A stretch of 64,000 bases of DNA from Microbacterium sp. (lineage in GTDB: Bacteria > Actinomycetota > Actinomycetes > Actinomycetales > Microbacteriaceae), in contig NZ_JBQDVP010000007.1 in the NCBI RefSeq assembly GCF_052102115.1, positions 1,605 through 65,604 on the forward strand. Direction: 5' to 3'. The notes under the pieces were generated by a model that worked only from the letters and a program-made list of their open reading frames with translations, searched no databases and had not been told where the DNA came from. Positions 37,563 to 57,218 of this stretch are shown in pieces. Made by a program: the position numbers and the translations under genes. Positions within the stretch are counted from its first letter, which is position 1. Every line of letters begins with the position of its first letter.

Positions 37563-37563
37563 C

Positions 37564-37993: not shown

Positions 37994-37995
37994 GC

Positions 37996-39303: not shown

Positions 39304-39333
39304 GTCCCCGCTTCTTTGAATTGTCTCGCGAAA

Positions 39334-39351
39334 CATGTATGGTGATACATG
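39334..39351. promoter_or_regulatory. Putative PadR operator CATGTAT-GGTG-ATACATG
   Basis: 7-4-7 perfect palindrome containing ATGT-N8-ACAT, upstream of the SDR operon. Confidence 0.7.
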
Positions 39352-39386
39352 GTTTGATCGTGAGATCCGATGCGAGGAGTTGTCGA

Positions 39387-40127
39387 ATGCCGGAGAACGA
39401 AGCCAAGGTCGCGTTGATCGTCGGTGGGACCGGCGGAATCGGTGGTGAGACTGCGCGCCGATTGTCGGCAGCGGGCTGGCGCACCGTCATCACGGGTTCC
39501 CGTGAGCAGGCCGCGGGCGATGCGATCGCCGCCGACCTGCCCGGGTCTCACTACGTGCGCGCCGATATGGGTGATGCGGCGTCATCGTCGGTCGTCGTCG
39601 ACGCCGCGGTGGCGGCGTTCGGCCGCCTCGACGCGCTCGTGTACACCGCCGGTGCCACGGCGAAGATCCCGCATTCCGATCTCGCCGCCGTTACCGACGA
39701 CGTGTGGGAGCGCATCCTCACGCACAACATCGTCGCCATCTGGCGCACGATCCTCGCGGCCCAGCCGCACCTGCGCGCCAACGGCGACGGGGCGATCGTC
39801 GTCACGGGCGCGCTGGCGGGCGTTCACGTCGGCGGCAGCAGCATCCCCTATGCGGTCAGCAAGGCGGGCCTGCACCACCTGGTGAAGCTGCTCGGGCCCG
39901 TGCTCGCCCCGGAGGTGCGGATCAACGCCGTCGCCCCAGGCCTGGTCGAGACGCCCTGGACGAGCGATCCGGCGTGGGAGCCGCTCTACCAGTTCTGGCG
40001 CGAGAAGGCGCCGCTGGCCCGCGTCGGCGAGCCCGAGGACGTCGCAGAGGTCGTCCAGTCGCTCATCGAGTGGAAGTACGTCACCGGACGCACGATCGTC
40101 GTCGACGGTGGATTCTCGCTGGTCTGA
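39387..40127 (+). CDS. Short-chain dehydrogenase/reductase
   Basis: VGGTGGIG, YAVSK and NAVAPG motifs. Confidence 0.85.
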   Translation: MPENEAKVALIVGGTGGIGGETARRLSAAGWRTVITGSREQAAGDAIAADLPGSHYVRADMGDAASSSVVVDAAVAAFGRLDALVYTAGATAKIPHSDLAAVTDDVWERILTHNIVAIWRTILAAQPHLRANGDGAIVVTGALAGVHVGGSSIPYAVSKAGLHHLVKLLGPVLAPEVRINAVAPGLVETPWTSDPAWEPLYQFWREKAPLARVGEPEDVAEVVQSLIEWKYVTGRTIVVDGGFSLV

Positions 40128-40150
40128 ATCGAAGAAGGAGCACAACCCAG

Positions 40151-40684
40151 ATGGCCGAACACAACGTCACCCTCTCGGGCGCGGCGCCCGCGCCGACGAC
40201 CAGGAGGTTCCGCCGGCTCGTCACCGGTCTGGACGAGAGCGGCAAGGCCGTCTTCGTCTCAGACGGCGAGAGCCCCTCGGTGCAGGTCGTCGCGAACACG
40301 CCGACGTTCGTCGTCACGAACTTCTGGCAGCACGCCGAGGTGCCCGTCGACAACAACGCCCCGCTCGACGACGGCGTGAGCGGACCGGTGAGCCTCAACC
40401 CTCCCGCCGGCGGATCGGTCTTCCGCATCGTCGAGTTCCCGCCGGACTCGGACTGGTCGGATCGGCCGGACGGCCCGTCCGACCAGGTGCACGCGACACC
40501 GTCGCTCGACTACGCGCTCGTGATCGAGGGCGACGTCTGGGCCGTGCTCGACGGTGAGGAGCGCGAGATGCACCCCGGAGACGTGCTGATCCAGCGGGGC
40601 ACGCGCCACGCCTGGTCCAACCGCACCCAGAAAGCCGCACTCGTCGCCTTCACGCTCATCGGCGGCACCGCCGTCCAGGACTGA
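40151..40684 (+). CDS. Cupin domain protein
   Basis: RRLVTGLDESGKAV N-terminus; VHATPSLDYALV.EG and IQRGTRHAWSN cupin motifs. Confidence 0.8.
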   Translation: MAEHNVTLSGAAPAPTTRRFRRLVTGLDESGKAVFVSDGESPSVQVVANTPTFVVTNFWQHAEVPVDNNAPLDDGVSGPVSLNPPAGGSVFRIVEFPPDSDWSDRPDGPSDQVHATPSLDYALVIEGDVWAVLDGEEREMHPGDVLIQRGTRHAWSNRTQKAALVAFTLIGGTAVQD

Positions 40685-40704
40685 ACCCCGAAAGGAATCG
40701 CATC

Positions 40705-41634
40705 ATGGCCACAATCATCGGCAACATCAGCAGCTCCCACTCTCCGTTGTGGAACCTCAAGCCCGATCCCGAGCCGGGCAACCCCGGTGCGGAGTTCGTG
40801 TCGTACATCGCGAAGGCCCGTGAGATCGTCGAACGGCTCGCGCCCGACGCGATCGTGATCTTCGGCCCCGACCACGCGCGCGGCGTCTTCTACGATCTGC
40901 TCCCCGCCTTCAGCATTGGCGTGGAACGCGTCGTGGGCGCCGGCGACTACTTCACCCCCGACGGCGAGCTGCCGGTCGCGACGCAGCTGGGCATGGACAT
41001 CTTCCAAGGCGTGACCGCCCGCGGCTTCGACCCCGCGATCTCGCTCGACCTGAGGATCGACCACGGGCTCACCCAGGTGTACCAGCGACTGAACCCCGCC
41101 ATCGACATCCCGATCGTGCCGATCATCGTGAACTCCGGCACCTCGCCGCTGCCGACCTTCGCCCGCAGTTACGCGTTCGGCCAGGCCGTCGGCGCAGCCA
41201 TCGCCCAGAGCGACCTCGACGCCCGCGTCCTCGTCATCGGCTCGGGCGGCCTGTCGCACTGGCCGAACTCGATCGATGCCTTCGACACGTCGATCACTCC
41301 GGAGTGGCGCGACTTCCTGATCCACGGGCGCAACCAGGTCGAGGAGCGCGAGGCAGGACGCCAGGCCACCGCCCTCAAGCTCGCCGAGGGCGAAGCGTCC
41401 GGTGAGGTCAACGAGGAGTGGGATCGCGACATCCTGGAGCGGATCCAGGCCGACCCGAGCGTGCTCGGCCGCCTCGACGAGGAGAATATCGAGGTCACCG
41501 CGGGCCCCGGCGCGGGCGAGCTGCGCACGTGGGCGGCCGCCGCCGGCGCCTGGGGCGGATCCATCGCGTGGACCGGGTACGAGCCCGTGCACCGCTGGAT
41601 CACCGGCATGGGCGTCGTGTCGAGCGAGCAGTAG
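40705..41634 (+). CDS. LigB-superfamily extradiol dioxygenase (MhpB-like)
   Basis: SHSP, FGPDH, IDHG, GSGGLSH and ELRTW motifs. Confidence 0.82.
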   Translation: MATIIGNISSSHSPLWNLKPDPEPGNPGAEFVSYIAKAREIVERLAPDAIVIFGPDHARGVFYDLLPAFSIGVERVVGAGDYFTPDGELPVATQLGMDIFQGVTARGFDPAISLDLRIDHGLTQVYQRLNPAIDIPIVPIIVNSGTSPLPTFARSYAFGQAVGAAIAQSDLDARVLVIGSGGLSHWPNSIDAFDTSITPEWRDFLIHGRNQVEEREAGRQATALKLAEGEASGEVNEEWDRDILERIQADPSVLGRLDEENIEVTAGPGAGELRTWAAAAGAWGGSIAWTGYEPVHRWITGMGVVSSEQ

Positions 41635-41642
41635 GGGTCACG

Positions 41643-42506
41643 ATGCCGACCCTGGGAACGACCGAATACCGCACGCCCGCATTCTTCGGCCTCGAGGACC
41701 GATGGATCGAGACCGCGCCGGGTGAGACGACGCACTACCACGAGGCGGGGGAGGGGCTGCCCGTCGTCTTCCTGCACGGATCCGGCACCGGGGTCTCCGC
41801 CGCAGCCAACTGGTGGCGGACCCTTCCCGCGGTGAGCGGTCGGGTGCGGGCGATCGCCCCCGATCTGATCGGGTGGGGAGCCACCGTGCAGCCCGACACC
41901 GCCGCTTTCGGCATCCGGGAGTGGGGGGAGCACGCGCTCCGCCTGCTCGACGCCCTAGGGATCGAGCAGGCCTGGTTCGCGGGCAACTCGCTCGGAGGCT
42001 GGATCGCGCTGCAACTCGCACTCGACCATCCCGACCGGCTGCGGGGGATCGTGTCGATGGGCACCGGTGGTGCGATCGTCAAGACCGCCGCGATCGCGCA
42101 GCACCTCGATCCCGACATCTCGACCGAAGGCCTCAGGAACGCCTTCGGCAAGTTCGTCACCGACCCGTCGATGCTCGAGGACGACATGATCGCGGCCAGG
42201 CAGCAGATCGCCGAGTACGAGGTGAGCACCGGCCGGCTCGCCCGGGTCATGGCGGCGCGCGAACGGGATCGCCATGACCTGCCGCTGCGCCCCGAGCAGT
42301 TGGCGCGGCTGGCGTTGCCGGTGCTGCTCGTCCACGGCAAGCAGGATGTGGTGATCCCCGCCGAACGCACGTGGGAGCTCGCCGGGCAGATCCCGACCGC
42401 CGATGCGCTGGTGCTCAACGGCTGCGGGCACTGGTCGATGATCGAGCGCGCGAACGTGTTCAACCGCGCGCTCGTGGACTTCGTGACCGGCGCATGGCAG
42501 TGCTGA
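41643..42506 (+). CDS. Meta-cleavage product hydrolase (MhpC/BphD-like alpha/beta hydrolase)
   Basis: HGSGTG, GNSLGG nucleophile, HGKQD and CGHW motifs. Confidence 0.82.
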   Translation: MPTLGTTEYRTPAFFGLEDRWIETAPGETTHYHEAGEGLPVVFLHGSGTGVSAAANWWRTLPAVSGRVRAIAPDLIGWGATVQPDTAAFGIREWGEHALRLLDALGIEQAWFAGNSLGGWIALQLALDHPDRLRGIVSMGTGGAIVKTAAIAQHLDPDISTEGLRNAFGKFVTDPSMLEDDMIAARQQIAEYEVSTGRLARVMAARERDRHDLPLRPEQLARLALPVLLVHGKQDVVIPAERTWELAGQIPTADALVLNGCGHWSMIERANVFNRALVDFVTGAWQC

Positions 42507-42538
42507 GCCGCGCCGCGCGGCTGCCCTAGGATCCGAGC

Positions 42539-43228
42539 ATGTCTCTCGAGCACGTCATTCTCGGCTGGCTGAGCACCGGGCCGGGGTCGGGGTACGATCT
42601 CGTGCGCGCGATGGATTTCGGCGTCAACTGGTTCTGGTCGGCACCGCACAGTCAGATCTACCCGAAGCTGAGAGACCTCGAAGAGCGCGGTCTCGTCGAG
42701 TCGGCTCCGACCGTCGTCGGCGAACGACTGGAGAAGCGCATCTACTCGATCACCGAGGAGGGCCGCCGCGCGGTCGACTCCTGGGCGGGCGGGCCGCCGT
42801 CGTACCCGGCCAATCGCGACGTCGAGCGGATCAAGCTCATCTTCGGAGACACCGGAGACCTCAAGGCACTGCGCGTCCATTTCGAACGGCACCACGAGCA
42901 CTACCGGCAGCGCCGCGACGCCATGCGCGCCTTCCTCGACGAAGTCGACGGCCGCCGCCATCGGCGTATCGAGCACCGGATCGCCAGCCGACCCACCGAG
43001 GCGCACGGCGAACTGACCCTGGCCGTTCGCGAACTCGCCTATCGCGGCGACATCGCCCGTGCCGAGAACGAGATGTCGTGGGCCCGTGATGCCCTGGAAT
43101 GGCTGGATCGCTTCGAGGAGAAATGGGGCGTATTGAACGGTGTTCTCCCGCTGGATGGATCAGCGACACCGCCTTCGGAGACAACGGTGGCGATGATGCC
43201 GCGGATCTCTCCGGATCCGTTCCATTGA
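42539..43228 (+). CDS. PadR family regulator
   Basis: LEHVILGWL...SGYDL...HSQIYPKL..LE...YSITEEG. Confidence 0.88.
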   Translation: MSLEHVILGWLSTGPGSGYDLVRAMDFGVNWFWSAPHSQIYPKLRDLEERGLVESAPTVVGERLEKRIYSITEEGRRAVDSWAGGPPSYPANRDVERIKLIFGDTGDLKALRVHFERHHEHYRQRRDAMRAFLDEVDGRRHRRIEHRIASRPTEAHGELTLAVRELAYRGDIARAENEMSWARDALEWLDRFEEKWGVLNGVLPLDGSATPPSETTVAMMPRISPDPFH

Positions 43229-43234
43229 ATGGAA
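43220..43234. promoter_or_regulatory. Putative IclR operator TTCCATTGAATGGAA
   Basis: 7-1-7 palindrome upstream of mhpF; near-identical copy at 46771-46785. Confidence 0.65.
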
Positions 43235-43306
43235 TCCCGTAGCCAGTCGCTTGAAAGCCGTCGTTACAGTCATCCCAAACGCACGTCGAGCGCGAGAGGG
43301 AAACGC

Positions 43307-44254
43307 ATGGCGAAGACGAAGGTCGCGATCATCGGATCGGGGAACATCGGCACGGATCTCATGTTCAAGGTGATGCGCCTGAGCGAGGTCCTCGAGATGG
43401 GGGCGATGGTCGGCATCGATCCCGACTCGGACGGGCTGGCGCGGGCCGCACGGCTCGGCATCCCCACGACCGCTCAAGGTGTGGAAGGCCTCATCGGTCT
43501 GCCAGGGTTCGACGAGATCGAGATCGTCTTCGACGCCACCAGCGCAGGCGCGCACCGGCGCAACGCCGCGGCGCTCGAGCCGTACGGCAAGCTCATGGTG
43601 GACCTGACCCCGGCCGCCATCGGTCCGTACGTGGTGCCCGTGGCCAACCTCGACGAGCACCTGGATGCGACGAACGTGAACATGGTCACGTGCGGCGGCC
43701 AGGCGACGATCCCGATCGTGAGCGCGGTCAGCTCGGTCGTCCCGGTCCACTACGCCGAGATCGTCGCCTCGATCGCGTCGAAGTCGGCCGGACCGGGCAC
43801 GCGTGCGAACATCGACGAGTTCACCGAGACCACCTCGGCCGCGATCGAGCAGGTCGGCGGCGCTGCACGAGGCAAAGCCATCATCATCCTCAACCCGGCG
43901 GAGCCGCCGATGATCATGCGCGACACCGTGCTCCTCATCACCGACCGCCTGAGCGACCAGGAGCGTGGCGAGGTCGAAGCCGCGGTCGAGGCCCGGGTTG
44001 CGGCCGTGGCCGAGTACGTTCCGGGCTACCGCCTGAAGCAGGTCGTGCAGTTCAGCGACCAGGACTCCACAGTCGATCTGCTCGTGCCCGAAGCTCAGCG
44101 CACCGGCGCGTACACGAAGATCTCGGTCTTCCTCGAGGTCGAAGGCGCTGCCATGTATCTTCCGGCGTACGCCGGAAACCTCGACATCATGACCTCCGCC
44201 GCGGTGCGTACCGCCGAGCGGATGGTCTCCACGCGGAAGGCGGTCGTCGCATGA
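43307..44254 (+). CDS. mhpF: Acetaldehyde dehydrogenase (acylating)
   Basis: [34 protein letters not shown] and YAGNLDIMT motifs. Confidence 0.93.
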
Positions 44255-45255
44255 CGAAGATCTACCTGCAGGACGTCACCCTGCGCGACGGGATGCACGC
44301 GATCTCGCATCGCATCGAGCCTGCCAAGGCGGCTGAGATCGCCCGGGCTCTCGACGCGGCGGGCGTCGACGCGATCGAAGTCGCCCACGGCGACGGGCTG
44401 GCCGGATCCAGCCTGACGTACGGTGCCGGCTCGAACACCAACTGGGAGTGGATCGAGGCGGTCGCGGCCGCCGTCGAGAAGGCGGTCCTCACCACGTTGC
44501 TCCTTCCTGGCATCGGCACGATCTCCGACCTCCGCCGCGCGTACGACCTCGGGATCCGGTCGGTGCGGGTCGCCACGCACTGCACCGAAGCGGATGTCTC
44601 GCAGCAACACATCGAGACCGCCAAGTCGTGGGGCATGGACGTCTCGGGCTTTCTCATGATGTCGCACCTGAACGATCCGGCCGGCCTGGCGGCACAGGCC
44701 AAGCTGATGGAGTCCTACGGCGCGGACTGCGTCTACGTCACCGACTCGGCGGGCCGGCTCACCATGGACGGCGTGCGCGAGCGCGTCCGTGCCTACCGGG
44801 ACGTGCTGGACCCGAAGACCCAGATCGGGATCCATGCCCACCAGAACCTGTCGCTCGCGGTGGCGAACTCCGTGATCGCTGTCGAAGCCGGCGCGACCCG
44901 GGTGGACGCCTCGCTCGCCGGTCACGGCGCCGGCGCGGGCAACACGCCGATCGAGCCGTTCGTCGCCGTCGCGAAGCTGACGGGGTGGGATGTCGCGGCC
45001 GACGTCTTCGCACTGCAGGACGCGGCGGACGACCTCGTGCGCCCGCTGCACGACCGTCCGGTGCAGGTCGACCGCGAGACCCTCACGCTCGGCTACGCCG
45101 GCGTGTACTCGAGCTTCCTGCGTCACGCCGAGCGCGTCGGCGCGCAGTACGGCCTCGACGCGCGCGATCTGCTCGTGACCGTCGGCGAGCGGAAGCTCAT
45201 CGGCGGGCAGGAGGACATGATCGAAGACATCGCGCTGGACGCCTCCCGCGCCTGA
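44251..45255 (+). CDS. mhpE: 4-hydroxy-2-oxovalerate aldolase
   Basis: [31 protein letters not shown] and GGQEDMI motifs; ATGA-coupled to mhpF. Confidence 0.93.
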
Positions 45256-45281
45256 CCTTCGGCGCCGAGCGCCTCCTCGGA

Positions 45282-45926
45282 TCAGTCGGTGAGATACCGG
45301 TAGATCCGGGGAAGGAGCTCGTCGGCCCGCTCGGCCCACCAGTCGATCTCGTCCTGCGGCAGCGGCCGGGGGGTTCCGGCGGCCAGCGCATCGAGCGCGA
45401 GGCGCGCGCTGCGTTCGAGCACCCACATCCGTGCGACCGCCTGTGCCGCATCCGTTCCCACGGTGACCGCCCCATTGCCGCGGAGGATGATCGCGCCAGA
45501 AGCGCCCGCGGCCTCGGCCAGCGCGTCTGCCGTGGCGCGGTCGCGCACCAGGCGCGAGCTCTCATGGATGTGCACGCCGTGCAGCATCGCGCCGTGGCCG
45601 CCGAGGACGGGCAGTGCGATGCCCAGGGCGCTGAATGCTGCGACCGCACGTGGCTGTGCGCGCACGATCGATCCGACCTCGGGCCGCGCGGCGGCCAGCG
45701 CAAGGTGCATCCATCCCTCCAGCGGCACGCCCGCGGGCAGCTCGTCGCTCGCGACGTCCACCCTGACCGGCGGGGCTTCGCCGGCCCGGCCGAGGGGCAC
45801 CGGTGGAGTGATCAGCAGGGAGCGTTCCCCCGCGCGGACGGACACGTGTCCGAATGCGTCGCTCAAGCCGGCCGCGGCCACGGCCGAGGCGGCCGTGCGC
45901 AGCTGTGTGGTCAGATCGTCGTTCAT
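45282..45926 (-). CDS. Class II aldolase/adducin-family protein
   Basis: FGHVSVR, E.WMH, ILRGNG motifs; some His ligands appear replaced (AQP, GNG). Confidence 0.7.
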   Translation of the reverse strand: MNDDLTTQLRTAASAVAAAGLSDAFGHVSVRAGERSLLITPPVPLGRAGEAPPVRVDVASDELPAGVPLEGWMHLALAAARPEVGSIVRAQPRAVAAFSALGIALPVLGGHGAMLHGVHIHESSRLVRDRATADALAEAAGASGAIILRGNGAVTVGTDAAQAVARMWVLERSARLALDALAAGTPRPLPQDEIDWWAERADELLPRIYRYLTD

Positions 45927-45983
45927 ACGCCTCCATCGTCCGGGCTAGGGTAACCGGAAACGCCGGAACCGCCGAGACGGATG

Positions 45984-46742: not shown

Positions 46743-46770
46743 GTCCTTCGAAGGGGTTATGGCGCCGGCG

Positions 46771-46785
46771 TTCCATTCAGTGGAA
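46771..46785. promoter_or_regulatory. Putative IclR operator TTCCATTCAGTGGAA
   Basis: Lies between the divergent iclR and mhpD-like genes; matches 43220-43234. Confidence 0.65.
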
Positions 46786-46857
46786 TCCACGTTGCCAGTG
46801 TCGTTCGTCGGGCGCCTAATAGTCAAACCAGCAAGTCCGAAAGACGACGAGGTCACA

Positions 46858-47649: not shown

Positions 47650-47652
47650 ACC

Positions 47653-50127: not shown

Positions 50128-50131
<4 letters not shown>
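49247..50131 (+). CDS. NitT/TauT-type ABC permease
   Basis: [15 protein letters not shown] and MVISEM motifs. Confidence 0.88.
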
Positions 50132-50961
<830 letters not shown>

Positions 50962-50970
50962 GGCGCAGGC

Positions 50971-51765
50971 ATGGATCTCGGCCTGCACGGCGCGCGTGTG
51001 GTCGTCACCGGCTCCTCCAGCGGGATCGGTTGGCAGACCGTTCGCGCGTTCATCGAGGAGGGTGCCGACGTCATCGGCGTCGACCGCACTCTGCCTCGCG
51101 ATGCCTCCGAGCTGGGCGCCGACGCCGAGTTCGCCGCGTTAGTGGTGGATCTCGTCGTGGATGAGGCGCCTGCGGCGGTTGCGGCGGCGGTGGCGGAGCG
51201 ATGGGGCGAGTTCGACGTCCTCGTCAACTGCGCGGGGGTCGCCCCCACGCGCGCGTCCGCCGTGGGCGTGGACGAGGCCGGGTGGGCGCACACTCTCGCG
51301 GCCAATCTGCTGGCCCCGGTGCGTCTCGTATCGGCCCTCGCGCCGATGCTCGCCGACGACATCGGTGTGGTCGTGAACATCGCATCCACGTCCGCCAGAG
51401 CACCCGAGCCGGCGATGGTGGACTATGCGGCGTCGAAGGCCGCGCTGGTCGCGTACACGAATGCCATCGCACAGGAACTCGGGCCTGGCGGCATCCGCGC
51501 AGTCGTGGTCAGTCCCGGCCCCACCCGCACCGAGCTGTGGGACGCCCCCGGCGGGTTCGTCGACGCGATCGCGAACGGCTACGGCATGTCACGCGAGGCA
51601 GCCGTGGATCACCACATCCGAAACATCCGTCGCATCCCGCTCGGGCGTCCCGGTGACGCGCGAGAGATCGCCGATTCCATCGTCTTCCTGGCCTCGCGAC
51701 GCTCGCGATTCACCACCGGCAGCGCGCTCGCCGTCCATGGGGGAATGGCGACGCATCCGGCGTGA
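50971..51765 (+). CDS. Short-chain dehydrogenase/reductase
   Basis: TGSSSGIG, LVNCAG and YAASK motifs. Confidence 0.85.
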   Translation: MDLGLHGARVVVTGSSSGIGWQTVRAFIEEGADVIGVDRTLPRDASELGADAEFAALVVDLVVDEAPAAVAAAVAERWGEFDVLVNCAGVAPTRASAVGVDEAGWAHTLAANLLAPVRLVSALAPMLADDIGVVVNIASTSARAPEPAMVDYAASKAALVAYTNAIAQELGPGGIRAVVVSPGPTRTELWDAPGGFVDAIANGYGMSREAAVDHHIRNIRRIPLGRPGDAREIADSIVFLASRRSRFTTGSALAVHGGMATHPA

Positions 51766-51831
51766 GCGTCCACAGACACCACCTCACCACCCGAACTCCG
51801 TCATCGTGACGGCACAGCAAGAGGAGAATCA

Positions 51832-52830
51832 ATGAAAGGCACCACAATCCGGTCACGCTTCGCGATCCTGGGCGCCGTCGCGGCGCTCGCGCTCACGTTG
51901 AGCGCCTGCGGATCGTCGACCGAACCCGCCGCCACGACCGAGCCGAGCGCCGGTGGTGGCGCCCCCGAGGTGACCGAGCTCACCGTGGGCATCGTCCCCG
52001 TCGTCGATCACGCGGGGATCTTCCAGGCCGTCAACGAGGGTTACTTCGAAGAAGAAGGCCTCACCGTCACAGTCCAGCCCGCGGCGAGCGGCGGAGCCCT
52101 CGGGCCTGCGCTGCTCGCGGGCGACCTCCAGGCGTCCTTCGCGACGTGGCCGTCGTGGTTCCTCGCGAACGAGAACGCCGCGCCGCTGCGCTTCGTGGGC
52201 CTCGGCGTCTCGGGTACCGAAGGAACGGCGGGAATCTACTCCGCTCCGGACTCCGACATCACCGAGCCCGCCGACCTCGAAGGCAAGACCATCGCCGTCA
52301 ACAGCCTGAAGAACACGGGCGAGCTGACGATCCGTGCGGTGCTGGACGCCGAGGGCGTCGATACGACGACGGTCACGTTCACCGAGCTCCCCTTCCCCGA
52401 CATGATCGGCGCGGTCACGCAGGGCAACGTCGATGCGATCTGGCTCGTCGAGCCGTTCGCGACAGGCGGCGACGATGCCGGTCTGGTGAAGGTCGCGCCC
52501 AGTTACACCGGCCCAACCGCCGACATCCCCGTTTCTGGAGTCGCCATGCTCGCGTCGTTCGTCGAGCAGAACCCGAACACGGCTGCGGCCTTCGCGCGGG
52601 CGCTGGCCAAGGGCAACGCCGACATCGCGGCCGACCCCGAACTGGCGCGGGAGATCCTCCTGGCCGCACCGTTCAACCAGAAGCCCGAGGTCGTGGAGGC
52701 GATGAACCTTCCCGCGTGGGTCGAGGGCTATCCGACGGCCGAAGGGCTCGAGATCTGGAACGAGCTGATGGTCGAATACGATCTGCTTCCCGCAGCCGTC
52801 GACCTCTCGGGCGTCGTCTTCCAGCCCTGA
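51832..52830 (+). CDS. ABC substrate-binding lipoprotein (NMT1/SsuA-like)
   Basis: Lipobox LSAC; DLEGKTIAV and VDAIWLVEPF motifs. Confidence 0.85.
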   Translation: MKGTTIRSRFAILGAVAALALTLSACGSSTEPAATTEPSAGGGAPEVTELTVGIVPVVDHAGIFQAVNEGYFEEEGLTVTVQPAASGGALGPALLAGDLQASFATWPSWFLANENAAPLRFVGLGVSGTEGTAGIYSAPDSDITEPADLEGKTIAVNSLKNTGELTIRAVLDAEGVDTTTVTFTELPFPDMIGAVTQGNVDAIWLVEPFATGGDDAGLVKVAPSYTGPTADIPVSGVAMLASFVEQNPNTAAAFARALAKGNADIAADPELAREILLAAPFNQKPEVVEAMNLPAWVEGYPTAEGLEIWNELMVEYDLLPAAVDLSGVVFQP

Positions 52831-52837
52831 CAACGAC

Positions 52838-52878
52838 GTGTGTCCGGGGCGGCACCGCGCCGCCCCGGACACACTTTT
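52838..52878 (+). terminator. Intrinsic terminator-like hairpin between the SBP and ALDH genes
   Basis: GTGTGTCCGGGGCGGC / GCCGCCCCGGACACAC followed by TTTT. Confidence 0.7.
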
Positions 52879-52915
52879 CCGCACGATAGAGTCCGCACGA
52901 TAGAGAAGGAATCCC

Positions 52916-54349
52916 ATGACAGAGCGTTATGGCCACATCATCGATGGCCACGAGGTCGAGTCGACACTCGGCCACCAGTTCCAGAGCATCGATCCCTATG
53001 ACCAGAAGCCGTGGGCCGAAGTGGCATTCGGCGGCGCTCCCGATGTCGACCGCGCGGTGGCCGCAGCCCGGCACGCGTTCGACGAGGGTCCCTGGCCGCG
53101 CATGACGCACGAAGAGCGACGCTCGCTGATCCACCGGTTCGCGGATCTCATCATCGAGAACGGCGCAGAGCTCGCCCTCGCCGACACGCGCGACATGGGC
53201 AAGCCCTACGCGCAGGCGCTCGGCAACGACGTGCCCCGGACGGCCGCCAACTTCCGCTTCTTCGCCGATCACGCCGCGCTCGCCACCGGTGACGTGTATC
53301 CGCGCGACGATCGCCACCACCTGTACTCCAGCTACGACCCGGCGGGCGTCGTCGCGGCGATCGCGCCGTGGAACTTCCCCATGATGCTCGAGAGCTGGAA
53401 GGTCGCCCCCGCCCTGGCGTGGGGCAACACCGTCGTGCTCAAGCCCGCCGAGGACTCCCCGGCGTCGGCCACGATCCTCGCGCGGCTCGCGCTCGAAGCC
53501 GGCATTCCGGCGGGCGTCTTCAACGTCGTGCATGGCTACGGCCCGGACTCCGCAGGTCAGGCCCTGACCGAGAGCCCCTTCATCGACCGCATCACCTTCA
53601 CGGGCGAGTCCAACACGGGGCGCGTCATCGCCGCTGCGGCGGCGAAGAACCTCGTGCCGGTCAGCCTCGAGCTCGGCGGTAAGGGCGCCAACATCGTGTT
53701 CGACGACGCCGACATCGACAACGCGGTGGAGTGGTCGATCAATGCCGCGTTCACCAACACCGGTCAGGTGTGTCTGGCGGGTTCGCGGCTGTACGTGCAG
53801 CGCGGCATCCTGCCCGAGTTCAAGCGGCGTTTCGTCGCCGCCGCCGAAGCGATGGTCGTGGGCGACCCCAAGGACGATTCCACCCAGATCGGTCCACTGT
53901 CGTCGGACGAGCACTACACCAAGGTGCGTCGCTACTTCGATAGCATCGAGCAGGCCGGCGGTTCGATCGACACCGGTCGGCTCGGCGACGGCTGGACCAT
54001 CACGCCCACGGTCATCTCGGGTCTGTCCGAAGAAGCCCCGCACCTTCGCGAAGAGATCTTCGGTCCCATCGTGTCGATGACCCCGTTCGACACCGTCGAC
54101 GAGGCGGTGCGGCTCGTGAACGCGTCGCCCTTCGGCCTGAACGCGATGATGTTCACCGAGAACCTGTCGACGGCCCACAAGGTCGCCGGCCGCCTCCGCG
54201 TCGGCACAGTGTGGGTGAACTGCTTCTTCATCCGCGACCTGCGCGCTCCGTTCGGCGGTGCGGGCGATTCGGGTGTCGGGCGAGAAGGCGGCAACTTCAG
54301 CCGCGAGTTCTTCACCGAGCCCAAGGCCGTCGTCATGCAGCTGAACTGA
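52916..54349 (+). CDS. 2-hydroxymuconic semialdehyde dehydrogenase-like aldehyde dehydrogenase
   Basis: RTAANFRFFAD, PWNFP, FTGES.TG, ELGGK, GQVCLAGSR and IRDLRAPFGG motifs. Confidence 0.82.
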   Translation: MTERYGHIIDGHEVESTLGHQFQSIDPYDQKPWAEVAFGGAPDVDRAVAAARHAFDEGPWPRMTHEERRSLIHRFADLIIENGAELALADTRDMGKPYAQALGNDVPRTAANFRFFADHAALATGDVYPRDDRHHLYSSYDPAGVVAAIAPWNFPMMLESWKVAPALAWGNTVVLKPAEDSPASATILARLALEAGIPAGVFNVVHGYGPDSAGQALTESPFIDRITFTGESNTGRVIAAAAAKNLVPVSLELGGKGANIVFDDADIDNAVEWSINAAFTNTGQVCLAGSRLYVQRGILPEFKRRFVAAAEAMVVGDPKDDSTQIGPLSSDEHYTKVRRYFDSIEQAGGSIDTGRLGDGWTITPTVISGLSEEAPHLREEIFGPIVSMTPFDTVDEAVRLVNASPFGLNAMMFTENLSTAHKVAGRLRVGTVWVNCFFIRDLRAPFGGAGDSGVGREGGNFSREFFTEPKAVVMQLN

Positions 54350-54377
54350 TCCACCCGACCTCGCAAGGAGAAACGAC

Positions 54378-54575
54378 ATGCCGCTCATCACCGTAAACAT
54401 CGCCGAGGGTCGTTCCGAGGCGGACATCCGCAAGCTCATGGCCGCGCTGCACACCGCGGCGCACGAGTCGATCGGCGCACCGGAGCCGAGCATCCGCGTG
54501 ATCGTGAACGAGGTCGCCACGGACCGGTGGCTGAGCGGCGGGCAGACGCTCGCCGAGAAGGCTGCCCGCAGCTGA
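54378..54575 (+). CDS. 4-oxalocrotonate tautomerase family protein
   Basis: 65 aa with catalytic Pro1 (MPLITV) and GRS motif. Confidence 0.85.
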   Translation: MPLITVNIAEGRSEADIRKLMAALHTAAHESIGAPEPSIRVIVNEVATDRWLSGGQTLAEKAARS

Positions 54576-54601
54576 CCAGACGCCTGCGCGGGCGGGCCGC
54601 C

Positions 54602-55564
54602 TCACACTTCGAGCGACGCCTCCAGGGGTGGGGTGGCCCACGAGTGGAACGTGGCCGGCACCGGGGTGCCCCACGCCGTGCCGCGACCGTCGGCCTCGGT
54701 GGTCCACGTCACCGGCTCCCAGTCCGGCTGGAAGATGTGGATGCCGTCGGTGAAGATCTCGACGCGGTTGCCGCCTGGCTCGATGACGTACACGAAGAAG
54801 CCCTGCGTGCGCGAGTGCTTCGCCGGGCCGAACTCGACCGGAGTGCCCAGCTGGAGGAACATGTCCGCTGCGCGGATCACGTCCATGTGACTCTCGACCG
54901 CGTAGGCGAGGTGGTGCAGGCGTCCCTCTGTGGGCGAGGGCTCCCTTGTCAGCGCGAGGTCGTGCGCCTTCGTCATGACACTCAGCCACGCGCCGACCTC
55001 GTCGCCGCCGGCCGGAGTCAGCCGTTCGCGCAGCTTGAAGCCGAGCGTCTCTTGCTGAAACGCGCTCGCCGCTGCCACATCGGGCACCAGCACGTTGATG
55101 TGGTCGATGTGCGCGGCCGCCGCCCCGTGCGGAATGAACCGTTGTGCCTGGTTCGGCAGGTAGGGCTCCTCGCCGGGCGGGGCCACGTACTTCTCGGTCT
55201 CGAAGTAGACCTCCTGCACGTGGCCGCCGATGCCGGCGAACCTGTAGGCGGCGCCGTGGCCGAGATCGCCGTCGTGCCATTCGCCCTCGATGCCGCGCGC
55301 CTCCAGAGCGTCCACGGGGCGCTGGAGCGCCTGCGGACTCGTCGTGCGCCATGCCATGTGGCCCAGGCCCGGGTGCGTGGTCGCGGTCAGCCGCAGGGAC
55401 GTGAGAACGTCGTCGTTCCAGGCACGCAGGTACACGGCATCCTTCGTCTCACCGACGGGGAACAGTCCGTAGGTGTCGGTGAAGAATCGTGCGCTCGCCT
55501 CGAGATCCGGCGTCAGCAACTCGACGTGGCCGAGCTGGGCCACGTCGTAGATGGGCTCGGACAT
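54602..55564 (-). CDS. Catechol 2,3-dioxygenase (VOC type I)
   Basis: LGHVEL, IDHINV, AHDLAL, LHHLAY, GPAKH and EPGGNRVEIF motifs. Confidence 0.88.
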   Translation of the reverse strand: MSEPIYDVAQLGHVELLTPDLEASARFFTDTYGLFPVGETKDAVYLRAWNDDVLTSLRLTATTHPGLGHMAWRTTSPQALQRPVDALEARGIEGEWHDGDLGHGAAYRFAGIGGHVQEVYFETEKYVAPPGEEPYLPNQAQRFIPHGAAAAHIDHINVLVPDVAAASAFQQETLGFKLRERLTPAGGDEVGAWLSVMTKAHDLALTREPSPTEGRLHHLAYAVESHMDVIRAADMFLQLGTPVEFGPAKHSRTQGFFVYVIEPGGNRVEIFTDGIHIFQPDWEPVTWTTEADGRGTAWGTPVPATFHSWATPPLEASLEV

Positions 55565-55565
55565 G

Positions 55566-56507
55566 TCAGACGCGTGTCTGCGCCGCTTCGGTCAGCGCCT
55601 GAACGGCCGCGGCATCCGCGTCGTTGTCGGCGGTGAGGATCTGACGCTGAGTCGACGGCTTCTGCGAGCTGCCGCCCCACATGTCGATCGCACCGAACAT
55701 CGTCGGATCGAAGGTGCGGGGGATCCAGGCGTCGTCGTCGTGAATCAGCCGCACGTTCCACGAGTACTCGTACGTGAAGCCCTCGGGACCCTTGAAGTAG
55801 AGGAAGACGGCGCCCGACTGCGGGTGGCGGCCGGGCCCCTGCTCGATCTCGACGTCGTGCTCCTTGAGGAAGTTCCAGTTGCGGAAGATCGCGTCGATCT
55901 CGTCGACCTGGAAGTTCATGTGGCAGAGGCCCGGCTCATCGCCCTGGAAGACCGCCAGAGTGTGGTGCACCGGGTTGAAGCGCATGAGCGCTGCGTTGTT
56001 CTGCACCCAGTCCGACACCTTGATGTTGAAGTTTTCGGTCCAGAACTCCGCCGCCTTGTAGATGTCTTTCGCGTCGACGCACAAGTGCCCGAACTCGGTG
56101 ATACCGCTCGATGCGCGCGTCAGCTCCAGGAACGACGGGTCGTGCATCTGCCCGATCACGAGGTCGAACTTGTTGCCCCAGGGGTCATCGAATGAGATGA
56201 AGTCCGTCACGCGGCGGCTGCGCGCTTCTTCGTCGGTGCCGCGATGCACGCGGATGCCGATGGATTCGAGGTGTTTGGCGGCATTGTGCAGCGCCTTGTC
56301 GTCGCGCAGGACGAGGCCGCTCGAGAGCACTCCGCTCTCGCCCTCGACGAACGCGAGGCAGTGCTGACGCTTGTCGGCGCGCAGGTAGTGGACACCGTCG
56401 TCGGCGCCCTGATACTTCATTCCGACGATGTCGCGGGCGAAGCCGACGGCGGTATCGACGTCCTTCGCGCCGCTTCGGACATAGCCGATGTCAACGAGTT
56501 CGATCAT
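55566..56507 (-). CDS. BphC-like VOC extradiol dioxygenase
   Basis: FGHL, HHTLA, CHMNFQV, GPGRH and FTYEYSW ligand pattern. Confidence 0.78.
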   Translation of the reverse strand: MIELVDIGYVRSGAKDVDTAVGFARDIVGMKYQGADDGVHYLRADKRQHCLAFVEGESGVLSSGLVLRDDKALHNAAKHLESIGIRVHRGTDEEARSRRVTDFISFDDPWGNKFDLVIGQMHDPSFLELTRASSGITEFGHLCVDAKDIYKAAEFWTENFNIKVSDWVQNNAALMRFNPVHHTLAVFQGDEPGLCHMNFQVDEIDAIFRNWNFLKEHDVEIEQGPGRHPQSGAVFLYFKGPEGFTYEYSWNVRLIHDDDAWIPRTFDPTMFGAIDMWGGSSQKPSTQRQILTADNDADAAAVQALTEAAQTRV

Positions 56508-56546
56508 TTCAATTGCTCCTTCGTCGGAGGTGGCGTACTTTCAGTA

Positions 56547-56564
56547 TAGGTATACATATACATA
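56547..56564. promoter_or_regulatory. Second putative PadR operator TAGGTAT-ACAT-ATACATA
   Basis: Same 7-4-7 geometry and half-sites as 39334-39351; lies between the divergent dioxygenase and padR genes. Confidence 0.65.
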
Positions 56565-56592
56565 TGTCACAAGTGATACTAGGGTGGCACTC

Positions 56593-57162
56593 GTGTCCCT
56601 GCGCTTCGCGATTCTCGGCATCCTCGAGGCCACGCCCATGACGGGGTACGAGCTGGGTCAGCGGTTCGCCTCGAGTGCACGATGGGTGTGGTCGGCTCCC
56701 CGGAGCCAGATCTATCCGCTGCTGGCCAAGCTCGAAGCCGACGGGCTCATCGCGGGGGAGCACGCCATCGTCGATGGGCGTGCCCAGCGCCGCTATGGCA
56801 TCACCGGCGACGGATGCCGCGAACTGCGCCGGTGGGTGAGCGAAGCGCACGACCTGCCGCCGGTGCGCGACCCGATGCTGCTGCACGCACTGTTCCTTGA
56901 CATCGTCGGCGTCTCCGAAGCCGAGGAGGTGCTCCGAGGCGAATGGGCGGCCGAGCGCGCGCGGATCGTCGAGTGGGAGGCACACCGCGATGCGCTCGCA
57001 GCGGGGAAGACGCCGGTGATCCGGGCCCGGCTGCGCAATCGCGATCCGAGCGAGCACGAGCGGATCACCCGCATCAAGGCCGCGGCCTTCAACGGTCTGG
57101 TCGAGACCGGTCGTGCGCGGCTGCGGTGGCTAGAGTCGATGATCGAAGCGGTCCGCGACTGA
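56593..57162 (+). CDS. PadR family regulator
   Basis: LRFAILGIL...TGYEL...RSQIYPLL.KLE...YGITGDG. Confidence 0.88.
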   Translation: MSLRFAILGILEATPMTGYELGQRFASSARWVWSAPRSQIYPLLAKLEADGLIAGEHAIVDGRAQRRYGITGDGCRELRRWVSEAHDLPPVRDPMLLHALFLDIVGVSEAEEVLRGEWAAERARIVEWEAHRDALAAGKTPVIRARLRNRDPSEHERITRIKAAAFNGLVETGRARLRWLESMIEAVRD

Positions 57163-57218
57163 CGTCCCCGGCGCCGAGCCAGCCGTGCCGGATCGGGCCG
57201 AAGCCTTGTTGCGCCGGG

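What the first reader, a model, noticed from the sequence alone, without database searches (positions are those of the whole stretch)
39387..57162. Meta-cleavage cargo with three extradiol dioxygenases and both lower branches but no ring-activating oxygenase
Seen in sequence: one LigB-type and two VOC-type dioxygenases, a hydrolytic branch (C-C hydrolase), an oxalocrotonate branch (ALDH, 4-OT, decarboxylase), hydratase, aldolase, acylating ALDH, a NitT/TauT importer, two SDRs, a cupin and a class II aldolase-like protein. No Rieske or flavin hydroxylase lies inside the IRs. Established knowledge: multiple extradiol enzymes are typical of pathways that cleave two rings in succession. Inference: the substrate is an already di-hydroxylated or bicyclic aromatic taken up by ABC transport, via an uncharacterised pathway.
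Basis: partly seen in the sequence, partly recalled or inferred. Interest (0 to 1): 0.6.

Follow-up and report, generated by a model that had tools for sequence, protein, structure and literature searches.

The report
Mosaic catechol-acid breakdown island on RIT
A mobile element in a food-fermentation actinobacterium carries a complete, intact gene set for importing and breaking down aromatic acids that already bear two hydroxyl groups (most likely 2,3-dihydroxybenzoate and relatives); it is stitched together from two known kinds of module, so it is a new arrangement and not a new pathway for two-ring compounds.

Summary
All listed genes are present and intact at 39387-57162, inside a 23-kb IR-bounded recombinase-in-trio (RIT) element. 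No Rieske or flavin hydroxylase lies within it.

The cargo is a mosaic of two modules.
- Module I: two VOC dioxygenases, a class II aldolase-like decarboxylase, ALDH, 4-OT, decarboxylase, hydratase, a NitT/TauT ABC importer and PadR. It recurs as one unit in two other genera of the family. It matches the known 2,3-dihydroxybenzoate (dhb) / p-cumate (cmt) meta-cleavage logic, in which a CmtC/DhbA-type dioxygenase is paired with a CmtD/DhbB-type decarboxylase.
- Module II: SDR, cupin and an MhpB-like LigB. This trio is conserved in Geodermatophilus. Here it is joined to a CumD-like C-C hydrolase and DmpFG.

Both modules converge on 2-hydroxypentadienoate.

The 98.75%-complete genome has no Rieske oxygenase alpha subunit, HpaB, P450 or intradiol dioxygenase. 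Its three flavin monooxygenases sit in unrelated contexts. Import of pre-dihydroxylated substrates is therefore supported. The two-rings-in-succession reading is not supported.

The cargo is near-identical in food and food-fermentation metagenomes of at least four studies. The scan has noted cargo-bearing RITs on other DNA before.

Verdict: a new variant of a known kind, of moderate interest. The substrates remain inferred.

The parts
39335..39350 (+). PadR-type palindrome ATGT-N8-ACAT (within CATGTAT-GGTG-ATACATG), 37 bp upstream of the SDR1 start; putative operator of operon 1
   Evidence: Sequence read. The pattern occurs twice in the window against 0.25 expected. The regulator assignment is inferred.
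39387..40127 (+). SDR1, a short-chain dehydrogenase; first gene of the conserved SDR-cupin-LigB trio
   Evidence: Pfam adh_short_C2 1.4e-44. 52% identical orthologue in the same position in G. ruber. ATG at 39387 preceded by GAGGAG.
40151..40684 (+). 177-aa monocupin of unknown function; second gene of the trio
   Evidence: Frame with GC3 0.79. Cupin_2 3.3e-7. PDB 3es1 and 8x0u are uncharacterised cupins. 60% identical orthologue in G. ruber.
40705..41634 (+). LigB-type (class III) extradiol dioxygenase, MhpB-like; diverged clade
   Evidence: PF02900 9.7e-37. NCBIfam 3-carboxyethylcatechol 2,3-dioxygenase 200 bits, below the 291 cut-off. PDB 8k04 MhpB 143 bits with catalytic His motifs kept. 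Nearest relative 82%, in Nocardia.
41631..42506 (+). Meta-cleavage-product C-C hydrolase, CumD/CmtE-like; its start overlaps the LigB stop by 4 bp
   Evidence: Abhydrolase_1. Best PDB hits are CumD 2d0d/1iun at 160 bits, against BphD 92-119 bits and MhpC 78 bits.
42539..43228 (+). PadR-family regulator 1
   Evidence: PF03551 and Vir_act_alpha_C.
43229..44254 (+). Acetaldehyde dehydrogenase (acetylating), DmpF/MhpF type
   Evidence: TIGR03215 446 bits, above the 282 cut-off.
44251..45255 (+). 4-hydroxy-2-oxovalerate aldolase, DmpG/MhpE type
   Evidence: TIGR03217 535 bits, above the 286 cut-off.
45282..45926 (-). Class II aldolase-fold protein; probable CmtD/DhbB-type decarboxylase of the carboxylated ring-fission product
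   Evidence: PF00596. Relatives are named HCOMODA/2-hydroxy-3-carboxymuconic semialdehyde decarboxylase by JGI and lie on the same contigs as VOC2 relatives. Adjacent to VOC2 in G106, G644 and G211. Keeps all 44 family-invariant columns.
45984..46865 (-). IclR-family regulator
   Evidence: IclR_C and HTH_IclR. 49-53% orthologues sit beside catechol meta-cleavage operons in G065 and G113.
46858..47649 (+). 2-oxopent-4-enoate (2-hydroxypentadienoate) hydratase, MhpD/DmpE/HpaH family
   Evidence: NCBIfam HpaH 270 bits and DmpE 259 bits, both below cut-off. 58-60% orthologues in G106 and G644.
47653..48438 (+). 4-oxalocrotonate (2-oxo-3-hexenedioate) decarboxylase, DmpH type
   Evidence: TIGR03218 264 bits, the best hit but below the 350 cut-off. 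67-68% orthologues in G106 and G644.
48435..50961 (+). ABC importer: two BPD_transp_1 permeases (48435-49250, 49247-50131) and an ATPase (50128-50961)
   Evidence: Pfam. Syntenic orthologues at 55-78% in G106 and G644.
50971..51765 (+). SDR2, inserted between ATPase and SBP. Absent from the G106 and G644 modules; G106 has a BBE-type FAD oxidase elsewhere in the module
   Evidence: adh_short_C2 1.8e-49. NCBIfam best PRK06523 192 bits; 2,3-dihydro-2,3-DHB dehydrogenase models 136-141 bits, all below cut-off..
51832..52830 (+). NMT1/SsuA-family (NitT/TauT) substrate-binding protein with signal peptide; ligand unknown
   Evidence: PF09084 4e-28. SsuA_fam 75 bits. Best species-representative relative 40%. 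Plasmid relatives at most 36%. PDB at most 48 bits. 50-51% syntenic orthologues in G106 and G644.
52916..54349 (+). NAD-dependent aldehyde dehydrogenase; probable 2-hydroxymuconic semialdehyde dehydrogenase
   Evidence: TIGR03216 507 bits is the best hit, below the 693 cut-off; HpaE 487 bits. 75-76% orthologues in G106 and G644.
54378..54575 (+). 4-oxalocrotonate tautomerase (65 aa)
   Evidence: PF01361 4e-13. NF002571 51 bits against a cut-off of 55.
54602..55564 (-). VOC1, a type I extradiol dioxygenase of the catechol 2,3-dioxygenase family
   Evidence: TIGR03211 280 bits against a cut-off of 320. PDB 9wgj 306 bits over the full length with metal ligands kept. 72-73% orthologues in G644 (inside module I) and G065 (catechol meta operon).
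55566..56507 (-). VOC2, a type I extradiol dioxygenase of the CmtC/DhbA (2,3-dihydroxy-p-cumate / 2,3-dihydroxybenzoate 3,4-dioxygenase) group
   Evidence: Relatives are named so by JGI. Only 127 bits to the BphC model. All BphC catalytic positions conserved. 66-67% orthologues beside the decarboxylase in G106 and G644.
56508..56592 (.). Divergent VOC2/PadR2 intergenic region with an AT-rich repeat block, including ATGTCACAAGTGATAC at 56564-56579
   Evidence: It shares half-site letters with the 39335 site, but the spacing differs.
56593..57162 (+). PadR-family regulator 2 (probable GTG start at 56593), divergent from the VOC operon as in G106 and G644
   Evidence: PF03551. 49-52% orthologues in the same divergent position. 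Start read.
37996..60985 (.). The carrier: an IR-bounded RIT-type element. IRs at 37996-38035 and 60946-60985; ritC 57598-58791, ritB 58623-59561 and ritA 59713-60843, all on the - strand. It also holds gene fragments (PepX_C 38355-38975; LacI C-terminus 57219-57527).
   Evidence: The flanks are consecutive halves of one DUF1016-like gene. Contigs from other studies span the same left junction.

Best explanation
The cargo is a working funnel for catechols that arrive already dihydroxylated. It is assembled from two modules that exist separately in other actinobacteria.

Module I (45282-45926 plus 46858-57162): the NitT/TauT-type ABC system imports an aromatic acid.
- VOC2 (CmtC/DhbA-type) cleaves a 3-carboxycatechol such as 2,3-dihydroxybenzoate next to the carboxyl group.
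- The class II aldolase-fold protein (CmtD/DhbB-type) removes that carboxyl, giving 2-hydroxymuconic semialdehyde.
- VOC1 (catechol 2,3-dioxygenase type) makes the same intermediate from catechol.
- ALDH, 4-OT and the decarboxylase then take it to 2-hydroxypentadienoate.

Module II (39387-45255): SDR-cupin-LigB (MhpB-like) opens a second class of 3-substituted catechol. The CumD-like hydrolase handles ring-fission products that are ketones, whether from LigB or from alkyl-substituted substrates of the VOC enzymes. This again yields 2-hydroxypentadienoate.

The single hydratase and DmpG/DmpF finish to pyruvate and acetyl-CoA. The two PadR proteins and the IclR protein presumably regulate the operons.

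Shown: gene content, intactness, module synteny, absence of oxygenases, and mobility context. Inferred: the substrates, the order of steps, and the regulation.
For: (1) All eight enzyme types of the dhb route described for P. reinekei MT1 are present. These are a type I dioxygenase, a class II aldolase-family decarboxylase, HMS dehydrogenase, tautomerase, decarboxylase, hydratase, aldolase and acetaldehyde DH (PMC6362003).

(2) Relatives of VOC2 and of the aldolase-like protein carry the CmtC/DhbA and CmtD/DhbB names. They share contigs in Microbacterium, Rhodococcus and Georgenia, and are adjacent in G106, G644 and G211.

(3) Module I is syntenic in three genera, with the same importer. The SDR-cupin-LigB trio is syntenic in G. 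ruber, next to a different importer and without an oxygenase.

(4) In G106 and G644 the pair is linked to ALDH, 4-OT and the decarboxylase. These can only process an aldehyde product, as expected from 2,3-DHB. In G155 and G211 it is linked to a hydrolase instead.

(5) The own genome has no PF00848, HpaB, P450 or intradiol dioxygenase. Its flavin monooxygenases lie in an hpa cluster, in a type III PKS operon, or alone among regulators.

(6) Catalytic residues are intact. The cargo is kept with 0-3 differences per 20 kb in metagenomes of four studies.
Against: - No reference DhbA/DhbB or CmtC/CmtD sequence could be fetched, so clade membership rests on automatic names and gene context, not on a tree.
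- None of the three dioxygenases, the ALDH, the hydratase or the decarboxylase reaches its NCBIfam equivalog cut-off.
- The SBP has no informative relative.
- The roles of the two SDRs and the cupin are unexplained. An SDR here, or a BBE-type oxidase in G106 and G211, recurring with VOC2 hints at an oxidation step before ring cleavage that the model does not account for.
- The source of catechol for VOC1 is unknown.
- The orphan flavin monooxygenase on C63 cannot be excluded as a feeder.
- The hydrolase's partner (LigB or the VOC enzymes) is ambiguous.
Confidence: 0.6

Rival explanations
1. One reading: one uncharacterised pathway for a bicyclic or two-ring aromatic, whose rings are cleaved in succession by different extradiol enzymes.
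For: Three extradiol dioxygenases and both lower branches lie in one 18-kb stretch. The hydrolase is of the type that acts on substituted ring-fission products.
Against: - The enzymes segregate into modules found apart in other genomes.
- After a first ring is removed, a second ring needs a new dihydroxylation. The genome has no Rieske alpha subunit, HpaB or P450, and no fitting flavin hydroxylase.
- The hydrolase is nearest to CumD (small alkyl groups), not BphD or HsaD.
Confidence: 0.06
2. Ordinary lower pathways for simple monohydroxy aromatics (salicylate, phenol, 3-hydroxyphenylpropionate), with the hydroxylase encoded elsewhere in the genome.
For: Three FAD_binding_3 proteins exist on other contigs. 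One belongs to the phenol 2-monooxygenase family at 934 bits. The C63 enzyme has weak similarity to salicylate monooxygenase. Such split arrangements are common.
Against: - The C1 enzyme lies beside a complete native hpa (homoprotocatechuate) cluster with its own VOC dioxygenase.
- The C5 enzyme lies in a type III PKS-methyltransferase operon, which looks biosynthetic.
- The C63 enzyme has no catabolic neighbours.
- Related modules in G106, G644, G155, G211 and G. ruber also lack hydroxylases and carry their own importers.
Confidence: 0.14
3. A cmt-type lower pathway for alkyl-substituted 2,3-dihydroxybenzoates (2,3-dihydroxy-p-cumate or -p-toluate), or products of partial oxidation by other community members. 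The SDRs would act as dihydrodiol dehydrogenases on imported dihydrodiols.
For: - VOC2 and the decarboxylase carry the combined CmtC/DhbA and CmtD/DhbB names.
- The hydrolase's best solved relative, CumD, cleaves 2-hydroxy-6-oxo-7-methylocta-2,4-dienoate. From memory (unverified), this is the substrate of CmtE.
- G155 and G211 pair VOC2 with a hydrolase and an SDR.
- SDR2 has moderate similarity to 2,3-dihydro-2,3-DHB dehydrogenases.
Against: - Module I in three genera is tied to ALDH, 4-OT and the decarboxylase, which cannot use the ketone product of 4-alkyl substrates.
- The hydrolase belongs to the other operon.
- The SDR scores are unspecific.
- This rival overlaps with the best explanation and does not exclude it.
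Confidence: 0.15
4. Non-functional hitch-hiking DNA: a scrambled remnant captured by the mobile element, not a working pathway.
For: The element also holds gene fragments (PepX_C and LacI C-terminus). The decarboxylase gene has been moved away from VOC2, compared with G106 and G644.
Against: - All 21 cargo genes are open and full-length with catalytic residues kept.
- Tight or overlapping gene junctions are preserved.
- The set is biochemically complete.
- The sequence is nearly invariant in populations sampled in four studies.
Confidence: 0.05

Closest known systems
dhb cluster of Pseudomonas reinekei MT1 (2,3-dihydroxybenzoate meta-cleavage; Marin, Plumeier & Pieper 2012, as summarised in PMC6362003)
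   Same: It has a type I extradiol dioxygenase and a class II aldolase-family decarboxylase. These are followed by HMS dehydrogenase, 4-OT, 4-OD, hydratase, aldolase, acetaldehyde DH and an MCP hydrolase. No ring-hydroxylating oxygenase is needed, because the substrate is a natural catechol.
   Different: - Actinobacterial, with proteins far from the proteobacterial models (below the equivalog cut-offs).
- A second VOC enzyme (catechol 2,3-dioxygenase type) lies inside the same module.
- A dedicated NitT/TauT-type ABC importer.
- PadR and IclR regulators.
- An added SDR-cupin-LigB block.
- Carried by a RIT element.
- Activity not tested.
cmt (p-cumate) pathway of Pseudomonas putida F1, lower part CmtC-CmtH (from memory; names seen)
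   Same: The CmtC-like dioxygenase and CmtD-like decarboxylase pair. A hydrolase whose nearest solved relative (CumD) cleaves the same compound as CmtE. Then hydratase, aldolase and acetaldehyde DH.
   Different: No CmtA Rieske dioxygenase anywhere in the genome. The oxalocrotonate branch is present, which cmt lacks. The hydrolase sits in the LigB operon.
mhp pathway of E. coli (MhpA-F; 3-hydroxyphenylpropionate)
   Same: A LigB-type dioxygenase (MhpB-like; PDB 8k04 143 bits) directly followed by a C-C hydrolase, with hydratase, aldolase and acetaldehyde DH present.
   Different: No MhpA. LigB is below the MhpB equivalog cut-offs. The hydrolase is nearer to CumD (160 bits) than to MhpC (78 bits). 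The conserved SDR and cupin partners have no mhp counterpart.
Classical catechol meta-cleavage operons (dmp, xyl)
   Same: Both the hydrolytic and the oxalocrotonate branches are present, chosen by whether the ring-fission product is a ketone or an aldehyde. Also has DmpFG, DmpE, DmpH and DmpI types, and a catechol 2,3-dioxygenase-family enzyme (VOC1).
   Different: No upstream phenol or toluate oxygenase. Has an extra carboxy-catechol entry (VOC2 plus decarboxylase) and a LigB entry. The gene order is scrambled over four operons.
RIT (recombinase in trio) elements (Van Houdt 2012, PMC3414803; PMC10214605)
   Same: Three tandem, partly overlapping tyrosine recombinase genes, terminal inverted repeats, and insertion within a gene.
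   Different: Canonical RITs are about 3.5 kb and carry nothing. This one spans 22,990 bp with about 19.5 kb of cargo between ritC and the distal IR.

Membership tests
dhb-type 2,3-dihydroxybenzoate meta-cleavage cluster | Type I extradiol dioxygenase of the DhbA/CmtC/OpaC group | tested here: inconclusive
   VOC fold with all catalytic residues. Relatives carry the KO-style name cmtC/dhbA. No reference sequence was available for a tree. Only 127 bits to the BphC model.
dhb-type 2,3-dihydroxybenzoate meta-cleavage cluster | Class II aldolase-family decarboxylase (DhbB) partnered with the dioxygenase | tested here: met
   PF00596. Relatives are named HCOMODA/2-hydroxy-3-carboxymuconic semialdehyde decarboxylase. 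Adjacent to VOC2 orthologues in G106, G644 and G211. In the window it lies 9.6 kb from VOC2.
dhb-type 2,3-dihydroxybenzoate meta-cleavage cluster | Complete oxalocrotonate branch plus hydratase, aldolase and acetaldehyde DH | tested here: met
   DmpF and DmpG are above their equivalog cut-offs. ALDH, 4-OT, decarboxylase and hydratase have these families as best hits but score below cut-off.
dhb-type 2,3-dihydroxybenzoate meta-cleavage cluster | 3,4-cleavage of 2,3-DHB and decarboxylation to 2-hydroxymuconic semialdehyde | not testable with these tools
   Needs enzyme assays.
cmt (p-cumate) pathway | Rieske p-cumate 2,3-dioxygenase CmtA | tested here: not met
   No PF00848 match in the 98.75%-complete genome. 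Only three small Rieske-domain hits, on other contigs.
mhp (3-hydroxyphenylpropionate) pathway | MhpA flavin hydroxylase | tested here: not met
   None in the element. The genome's three FAD_binding_3 proteins score far below the MhpA equivalog cut-offs and lie in unrelated contexts.
mhp (3-hydroxyphenylpropionate) pathway | MhpB-equivalog dioxygenase and MhpC-type hydrolase | tested here: not met
   LigB scores 200 bits against a cut-off of 291. The hydrolase scores 78 bits to MhpC but 160 bits to CumD.
Catechol 2,3-dioxygenase (TIGR03211 equivalog) | Score above the curated cut-off | tested here: not met
   VOC1 scores 280 bits against a cut-off of 320. It is nevertheless the best family, with a 306-bit full-length match to PDB 9wgj.
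NitT/TauT ABC importer | NMT1/SsuA-fold SBP with two BPD_transp_1 permeases and one ATPase | tested here: met
   The ligand class is not inferable.
RIT element | Three tandem tyrosine recombinases between terminal inverted repeats, inserted as a unit | tested here: met
   The flanking halves of one DUF1016-like gene are contiguous in reading. The length of 23 kb departs from the canonical 3.5 kb (PMC3414803).

The most novel reading that the evidence does not exclude
The island lets a food-fermentation actinobacterium import and burn catecholate compounds made by its neighbours. An example is 2,3-dihydroxybenzoate released from catecholate siderophores. It would do this through a previously unrecognised ligand class for NitT/TauT binding proteins. 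In addition, the conserved SDR-cupin-LigB trio would define an uncharacterised route that makes or opens a catechol from a non-aromatic or unusual precursor without any oxygenase-type hydroxylase.
Probability: 0.15. Interest if true: 0.7.

Novelty: new variant of a known kind. Interest (0 to 1): 0.45.

Why it matters
If the model holds, there are four consequences.

1. It gives a first actinobacterial example of the dhb-type route. In the literature I could search, this route is characterised only in Pseudomonas.
2. It assigns a testable aromatic-acid ligand to a branch of the NitT/TauT binding proteins.
3. It shows how a bacterium with no ring-hydroxylating oxygenase at all can still live on aromatic rings that others have already hydroxylated.
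4. It offers a clean case of a recombinase-in-trio element moving a complete 19.5-kb metabolic trait in a food-associated community.

The SDR-cupin-LigB trio is a small, conserved, uncharacterised unit and is worth an enzymologist's attention.

Tried and rejected
The contexts of the closest VOC2 relatives (P0002, P0007) and of the 82% Nocardia LigB could not be read.
- The primary dhb paper (PMC3416551) is not held. No DhbA/DhbB or CmtC/CmtD reference sequence could be obtained, so no phylogeny of the dioxygenases was built.
- A megablast of the whole cargo against plasmids found only generic dmpFG at about 75% identity.
- SBP relatives among the species genomes (40% at best) sit in other contexts. 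Plasmid SBPs (36% at best, with no RHA1 phthalate-transporter hit) and PDB (48 bits at best) say nothing about the ligand.
- PDB codes 9wgj, 8x0u and 3es1 have no paper in the library. The cupin stays unassigned.
- The PF02332 (diiron phenol hydroxylase) search is uninformative, because its control rang nowhere.
- 'One shared PadR operator' is only half borne out. The site at 39335 is ATGT-N8-ACAT, while the site at 56564 has a different spacing.
- No RNA holder was listed among the sequencing runs, so there is no evidence on expression.
- The short-sided 'joints' in the contig laying (sides of 20-31 letters) were judged to come from other organisms' ABC and ALDH genes.
- Considered and rejected: SDRs as proven dihydrodiol dehydrogenases (their scores are unspecific); the C1 hydroxylase as a feeder (it belongs to the hpa cluster).

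Full report
**Observation.**
The window is 65-70% G+C, so I called genes by third-position GC and named them with Pfam and NCBIfam. The genes form four transcription units:

- Unit 1 (+): SDR1, a 177-aa cupin (40151-40684, recovered by frame analysis; Cupin_2), LigB, an alpha/beta C-C hydrolase, PadR1, acetylating acetaldehyde dehydrogenase and 4-hydroxy-2-oxovalerate aldolase.
- Unit 2 (-): IclR and a class II aldolase-like protein.
- Unit 3 (+): hydratase, decarboxylase, two permeases, ATPase, SDR2, an NMT1/SsuA-type binding protein, ALDH and 4-OT.
- Unit 4 (-): VOC2 and VOC1, with PadR2 divergent from them.

Only DmpF and DmpG pass their NCBIfam equivalog cut-offs. The dioxygenases, ALDH, hydratase and decarboxylase have the expected families as best hits but score below cut-off, so these are diverged members. 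All three dioxygenases keep the catalytic positions of their solved relatives. The aldolase-like protein keeps every column that is invariant in its family.

**Carrier.**
A 40-nt inverted repeat pair lies at 37996-38035 and 60946-60985. Its 23-nt core occurs exactly twice in the window, and there is no third copy next to ritC. Three tandem tyrosine recombinase genes lie at 57598-60843. The reading frames just outside the two IRs are consecutive parts of one DUF1016-type gene, so the whole 22,990 bp is a single insertion and the catabolic genes are true cargo. Canonical RIT elements are about 3.5 kb with no cargo (PMC3414803; PMC10214605). This aspect is the subject of another finding on the same window (e1-5265959), and the scan has met cargo-bearing RITs on other DNA, so I did not pursue it further.

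**No oxygenase.**
The whole genome (3.23 Mb, 98.75% complete) has none of the following:

- Rieske oxygenase alpha subunit;
- HpaB;
- P450;
- intradiol dioxygenase.

It has only three small Rieske-domain hits, all on other contigs. The diiron phenol hydroxylase search is uninformative, because its control rang nowhere.

Three FAD_binding_3 proteins exist, and none looks like a feeder:

- The phenol 2-monooxygenase-family enzyme on contig C1 lies beside a complete native homoprotocatechuate cluster. HpaD and HpaE are above their equivalog cut-offs, and HpaG, HpaH, HpaI and an MFS transporter are also present.
- The C5 enzyme lies in a type III polyketide synthase-methyltransferase-monooxygenase operon. 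I recall this arrangement, unverified, from the SrsABC phenolic-lipid biosynthesis genes.
- The C63 enzyme stands among TetR and LysR regulators.

The C63 orphan cannot be excluded.

**Modules.**
A DNA search of 150 genomes of the family, followed by protein searches, gave these counts:

- VOC2 orthologues occur in only 2 of 400 genomes of the family and in none of 6 of the same genus.
- VOC2 orthologues occur in 2 of 120 genomes sampled across the class.
- LigB has no orthologue in 300 class genomes.

In G644 the order is PadR, then divergently the aldolase-like protein, VOC2 and 4-OT, then convergently VOC1, ALDH, SBP, ATPase, two permeases, decarboxylase and hydratase, at 49-78% identity. 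G106 has the same unit, with a BBE-type FAD oxidase in VOC1's place and an IS30-like transposase nearby. The two VOC enzymes, the decarboxylase, the oxalocrotonate branch and this ABC importer therefore form one conserved module.

In G155 and G211 the VOC2/decarboxylase pair sits instead with a C-C hydrolase, hydratase, DmpFG, GntR, AtaL-like proteins, FAA-family hydrolases and again a BBE oxidase. No Rieske protein is present.

Separately, Geodermatophilus ruber has SDR (52%), cupin (60%) and LigB (60%) in the same order. They lie beside a GntR regulator, a Liv-type ABC importer and FAA-family hydrolases, and again no oxygenase.

G065 and G113 show VOC1 relatives in ordinary IclR-controlled catechol meta-cleavage operons.

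The window's cargo is thus a mosaic: module I (rearranged, with SDR2 inserted) plus the SDR-cupin-LigB trio, a hydrolase and DmpFG.

**Chemistry.**
PMC6362003 describes the dhb route of P. reinekei MT1. DhbA, a type I extradiol enzyme, cleaves 2,3-dihydroxybenzoate. DhbB, a class II aldolase-family protein, decarboxylates the product to 2-hydroxymuconic semialdehyde. The usual enzymes follow.

Relatives of VOC2 are named '2,3-dihydroxy-p-cumate/2,3-dihydroxybenzoate 3,4-dioxygenase' by JGI. Relatives of the aldolase-like protein are named 'HCOMODA/2-hydroxy-3-carboxy-muconic semialdehyde decarboxylase'. The two sets share contigs in several actinobacterial genera, judging by matching contig lengths. 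These are automatic names, but the conserved adjacency is independent support.

The linkage of the pair to ALDH, 4-OT and the decarboxylase in G106, G644 and the window argues for a substrate whose decarboxylated ring-fission product is an aldehyde. That means unsubstituted 2,3-DHB and not p-cumate-derived diols. This follows from established knowledge of the meta pathway's two branches.

The hydrolase is nearest to CumD (160 bits), against 92-119 bits for BphD, 122 for CarC and DxnB2, and 78 for MhpC. It would therefore take ketone products with small substituents, whether from LigB or from alkyl-substituted substrates of the VOC enzymes. This explains 'both lower branches' in the classical way.

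LigB is MhpB-like (143 bits to 8k04; relatives named MhpB; nearest relative 82%, in a Nocardia), but it falls below the MhpB equivalog cut-offs.

All routes meet at 2-hydroxypentadienoate, which is served by the one hydratase and by DmpG/DmpF.

**What remains unexplained.**
- The roles of SDR1, SDR2 and the cupin.
- The recurring oxidoreductase near VOC2: an SDR here, a BBE oxidase in G106 and G211.
- The source of catechol for VOC1.
- The ligand of the binding protein.

**Regulation.**
A perfect ATGT-N8-ACAT palindrome lies 37 bp upstream of SDR1. The VOC2/PadR2 intergenic region has a related AT-rich block with a different spacing. A shared PadR regulon is plausible but not shown.

**Population evidence.**
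Sampled words of 47000-56500 are held by 20 runs from 8 studies, mostly food and food-fermentation metagenomes, plus one abattoir metagenome. Contigs from four of these studies tile 37500-57400 with 0-3 differences at even depth. In three of them (X3, X8 and X14) a contig crosses the same left junction. The complete mosaic is therefore maintained in nature. However, this is one insertion in one lineage, not repeated transposition.

**Comparison and verdict.**
The core works like the dhb and cmt lower pathways and the classical dmp/xyl lower pathway. It differs from them in these ways:

- it comes from an actinobacterium and its proteins are diverged;
- it has a second VOC enzyme inside the module;
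- it has a dedicated NitT/TauT-type importer;
- it is controlled by PadR and IclR regulators;
- it has an added SDR-cupin-LigB block;
- it is carried by a RIT element.

No characterised actinobacterial counterpart was found in the library or among annotated plasmids.

I rate it a new variant of a known kind, of moderate interest. The inference of a pre-dihydroxylated, imported substrate is supported. The two-ring inference is not supported.

Noticed in passing
window 62939-64324: Only the C-terminal third of a second LigB-family gene survives (PF02900 positions 178-268). It begins right at the right IR of the IS30-like element. A Gfo/Idh/MocA plus OxRdtase_C oxidoreductase (LigC-like) follows it. 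This looks like the remnant of an older protocatechuate-4,5-type cluster cut by mobile DNA.
   Followed up: partly
window 61492-62942: An IS30-like element (HTH_38 plus rve transposase) bounded by perfect 25-nt inverted repeats. It lies between the DUF1016 3' half and the LigB fragment.
   Followed up: no
window 38036-39320 and 57219-57527: The RIT cargo also holds gene fragments: a PepX_C-only ORF (38355-38975), an 80-aa ORF with no family (39061-39303), and the C-terminal 102 aa of a LacI-type regulator abutting ritC. They probably mark the edges of the DNA that was captured.
   Followed up: no
G000 contig C1:70001-86200 (L110): A native homoprotocatechuate pathway (HpaG-like, HpaE, HpaD, HpaH, HpaI) with an MFS transporter and a phenol 2-monooxygenase-family flavoprotein. 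It is the genome's only other ring-cleavage system.
   Followed up: partly
G000 contig C5 (L119:5484-8460): A type III polyketide synthase, a methyltransferase and an FAD monooxygenase in a row. I recall this arrangement, unverified, from the SrsABC alkylresorcinol/alkylquinone genes.
   Followed up: no
L100:14751-16103 (G106) and L109:11576-13039 (G211): A BBE-type FAD-linked oxidase recurs next to the VOC2/decarboxylase pair in two unrelated genomes, together with AtaL-like (PF08982) proteins in G155 and G211. This hints at an oxidation step upstream of ring cleavage that no described dhb or cmt pathway has.
   Followed up: partly
window 39335-39350 and 56564-56579: A PadR-type ATGT-N8-ACAT palindrome lies before SDR1. 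A related but differently spaced site lies in the VOC2/PadR2 intergenic region.
   Followed up: partly
window 47000-56500 in public runs: The cargo is near-identical in food, food-fermentation and abattoir metagenomes from several studies between 2021 and 2025. The host is therefore a recurrent member of such communities.
   Followed up: partly
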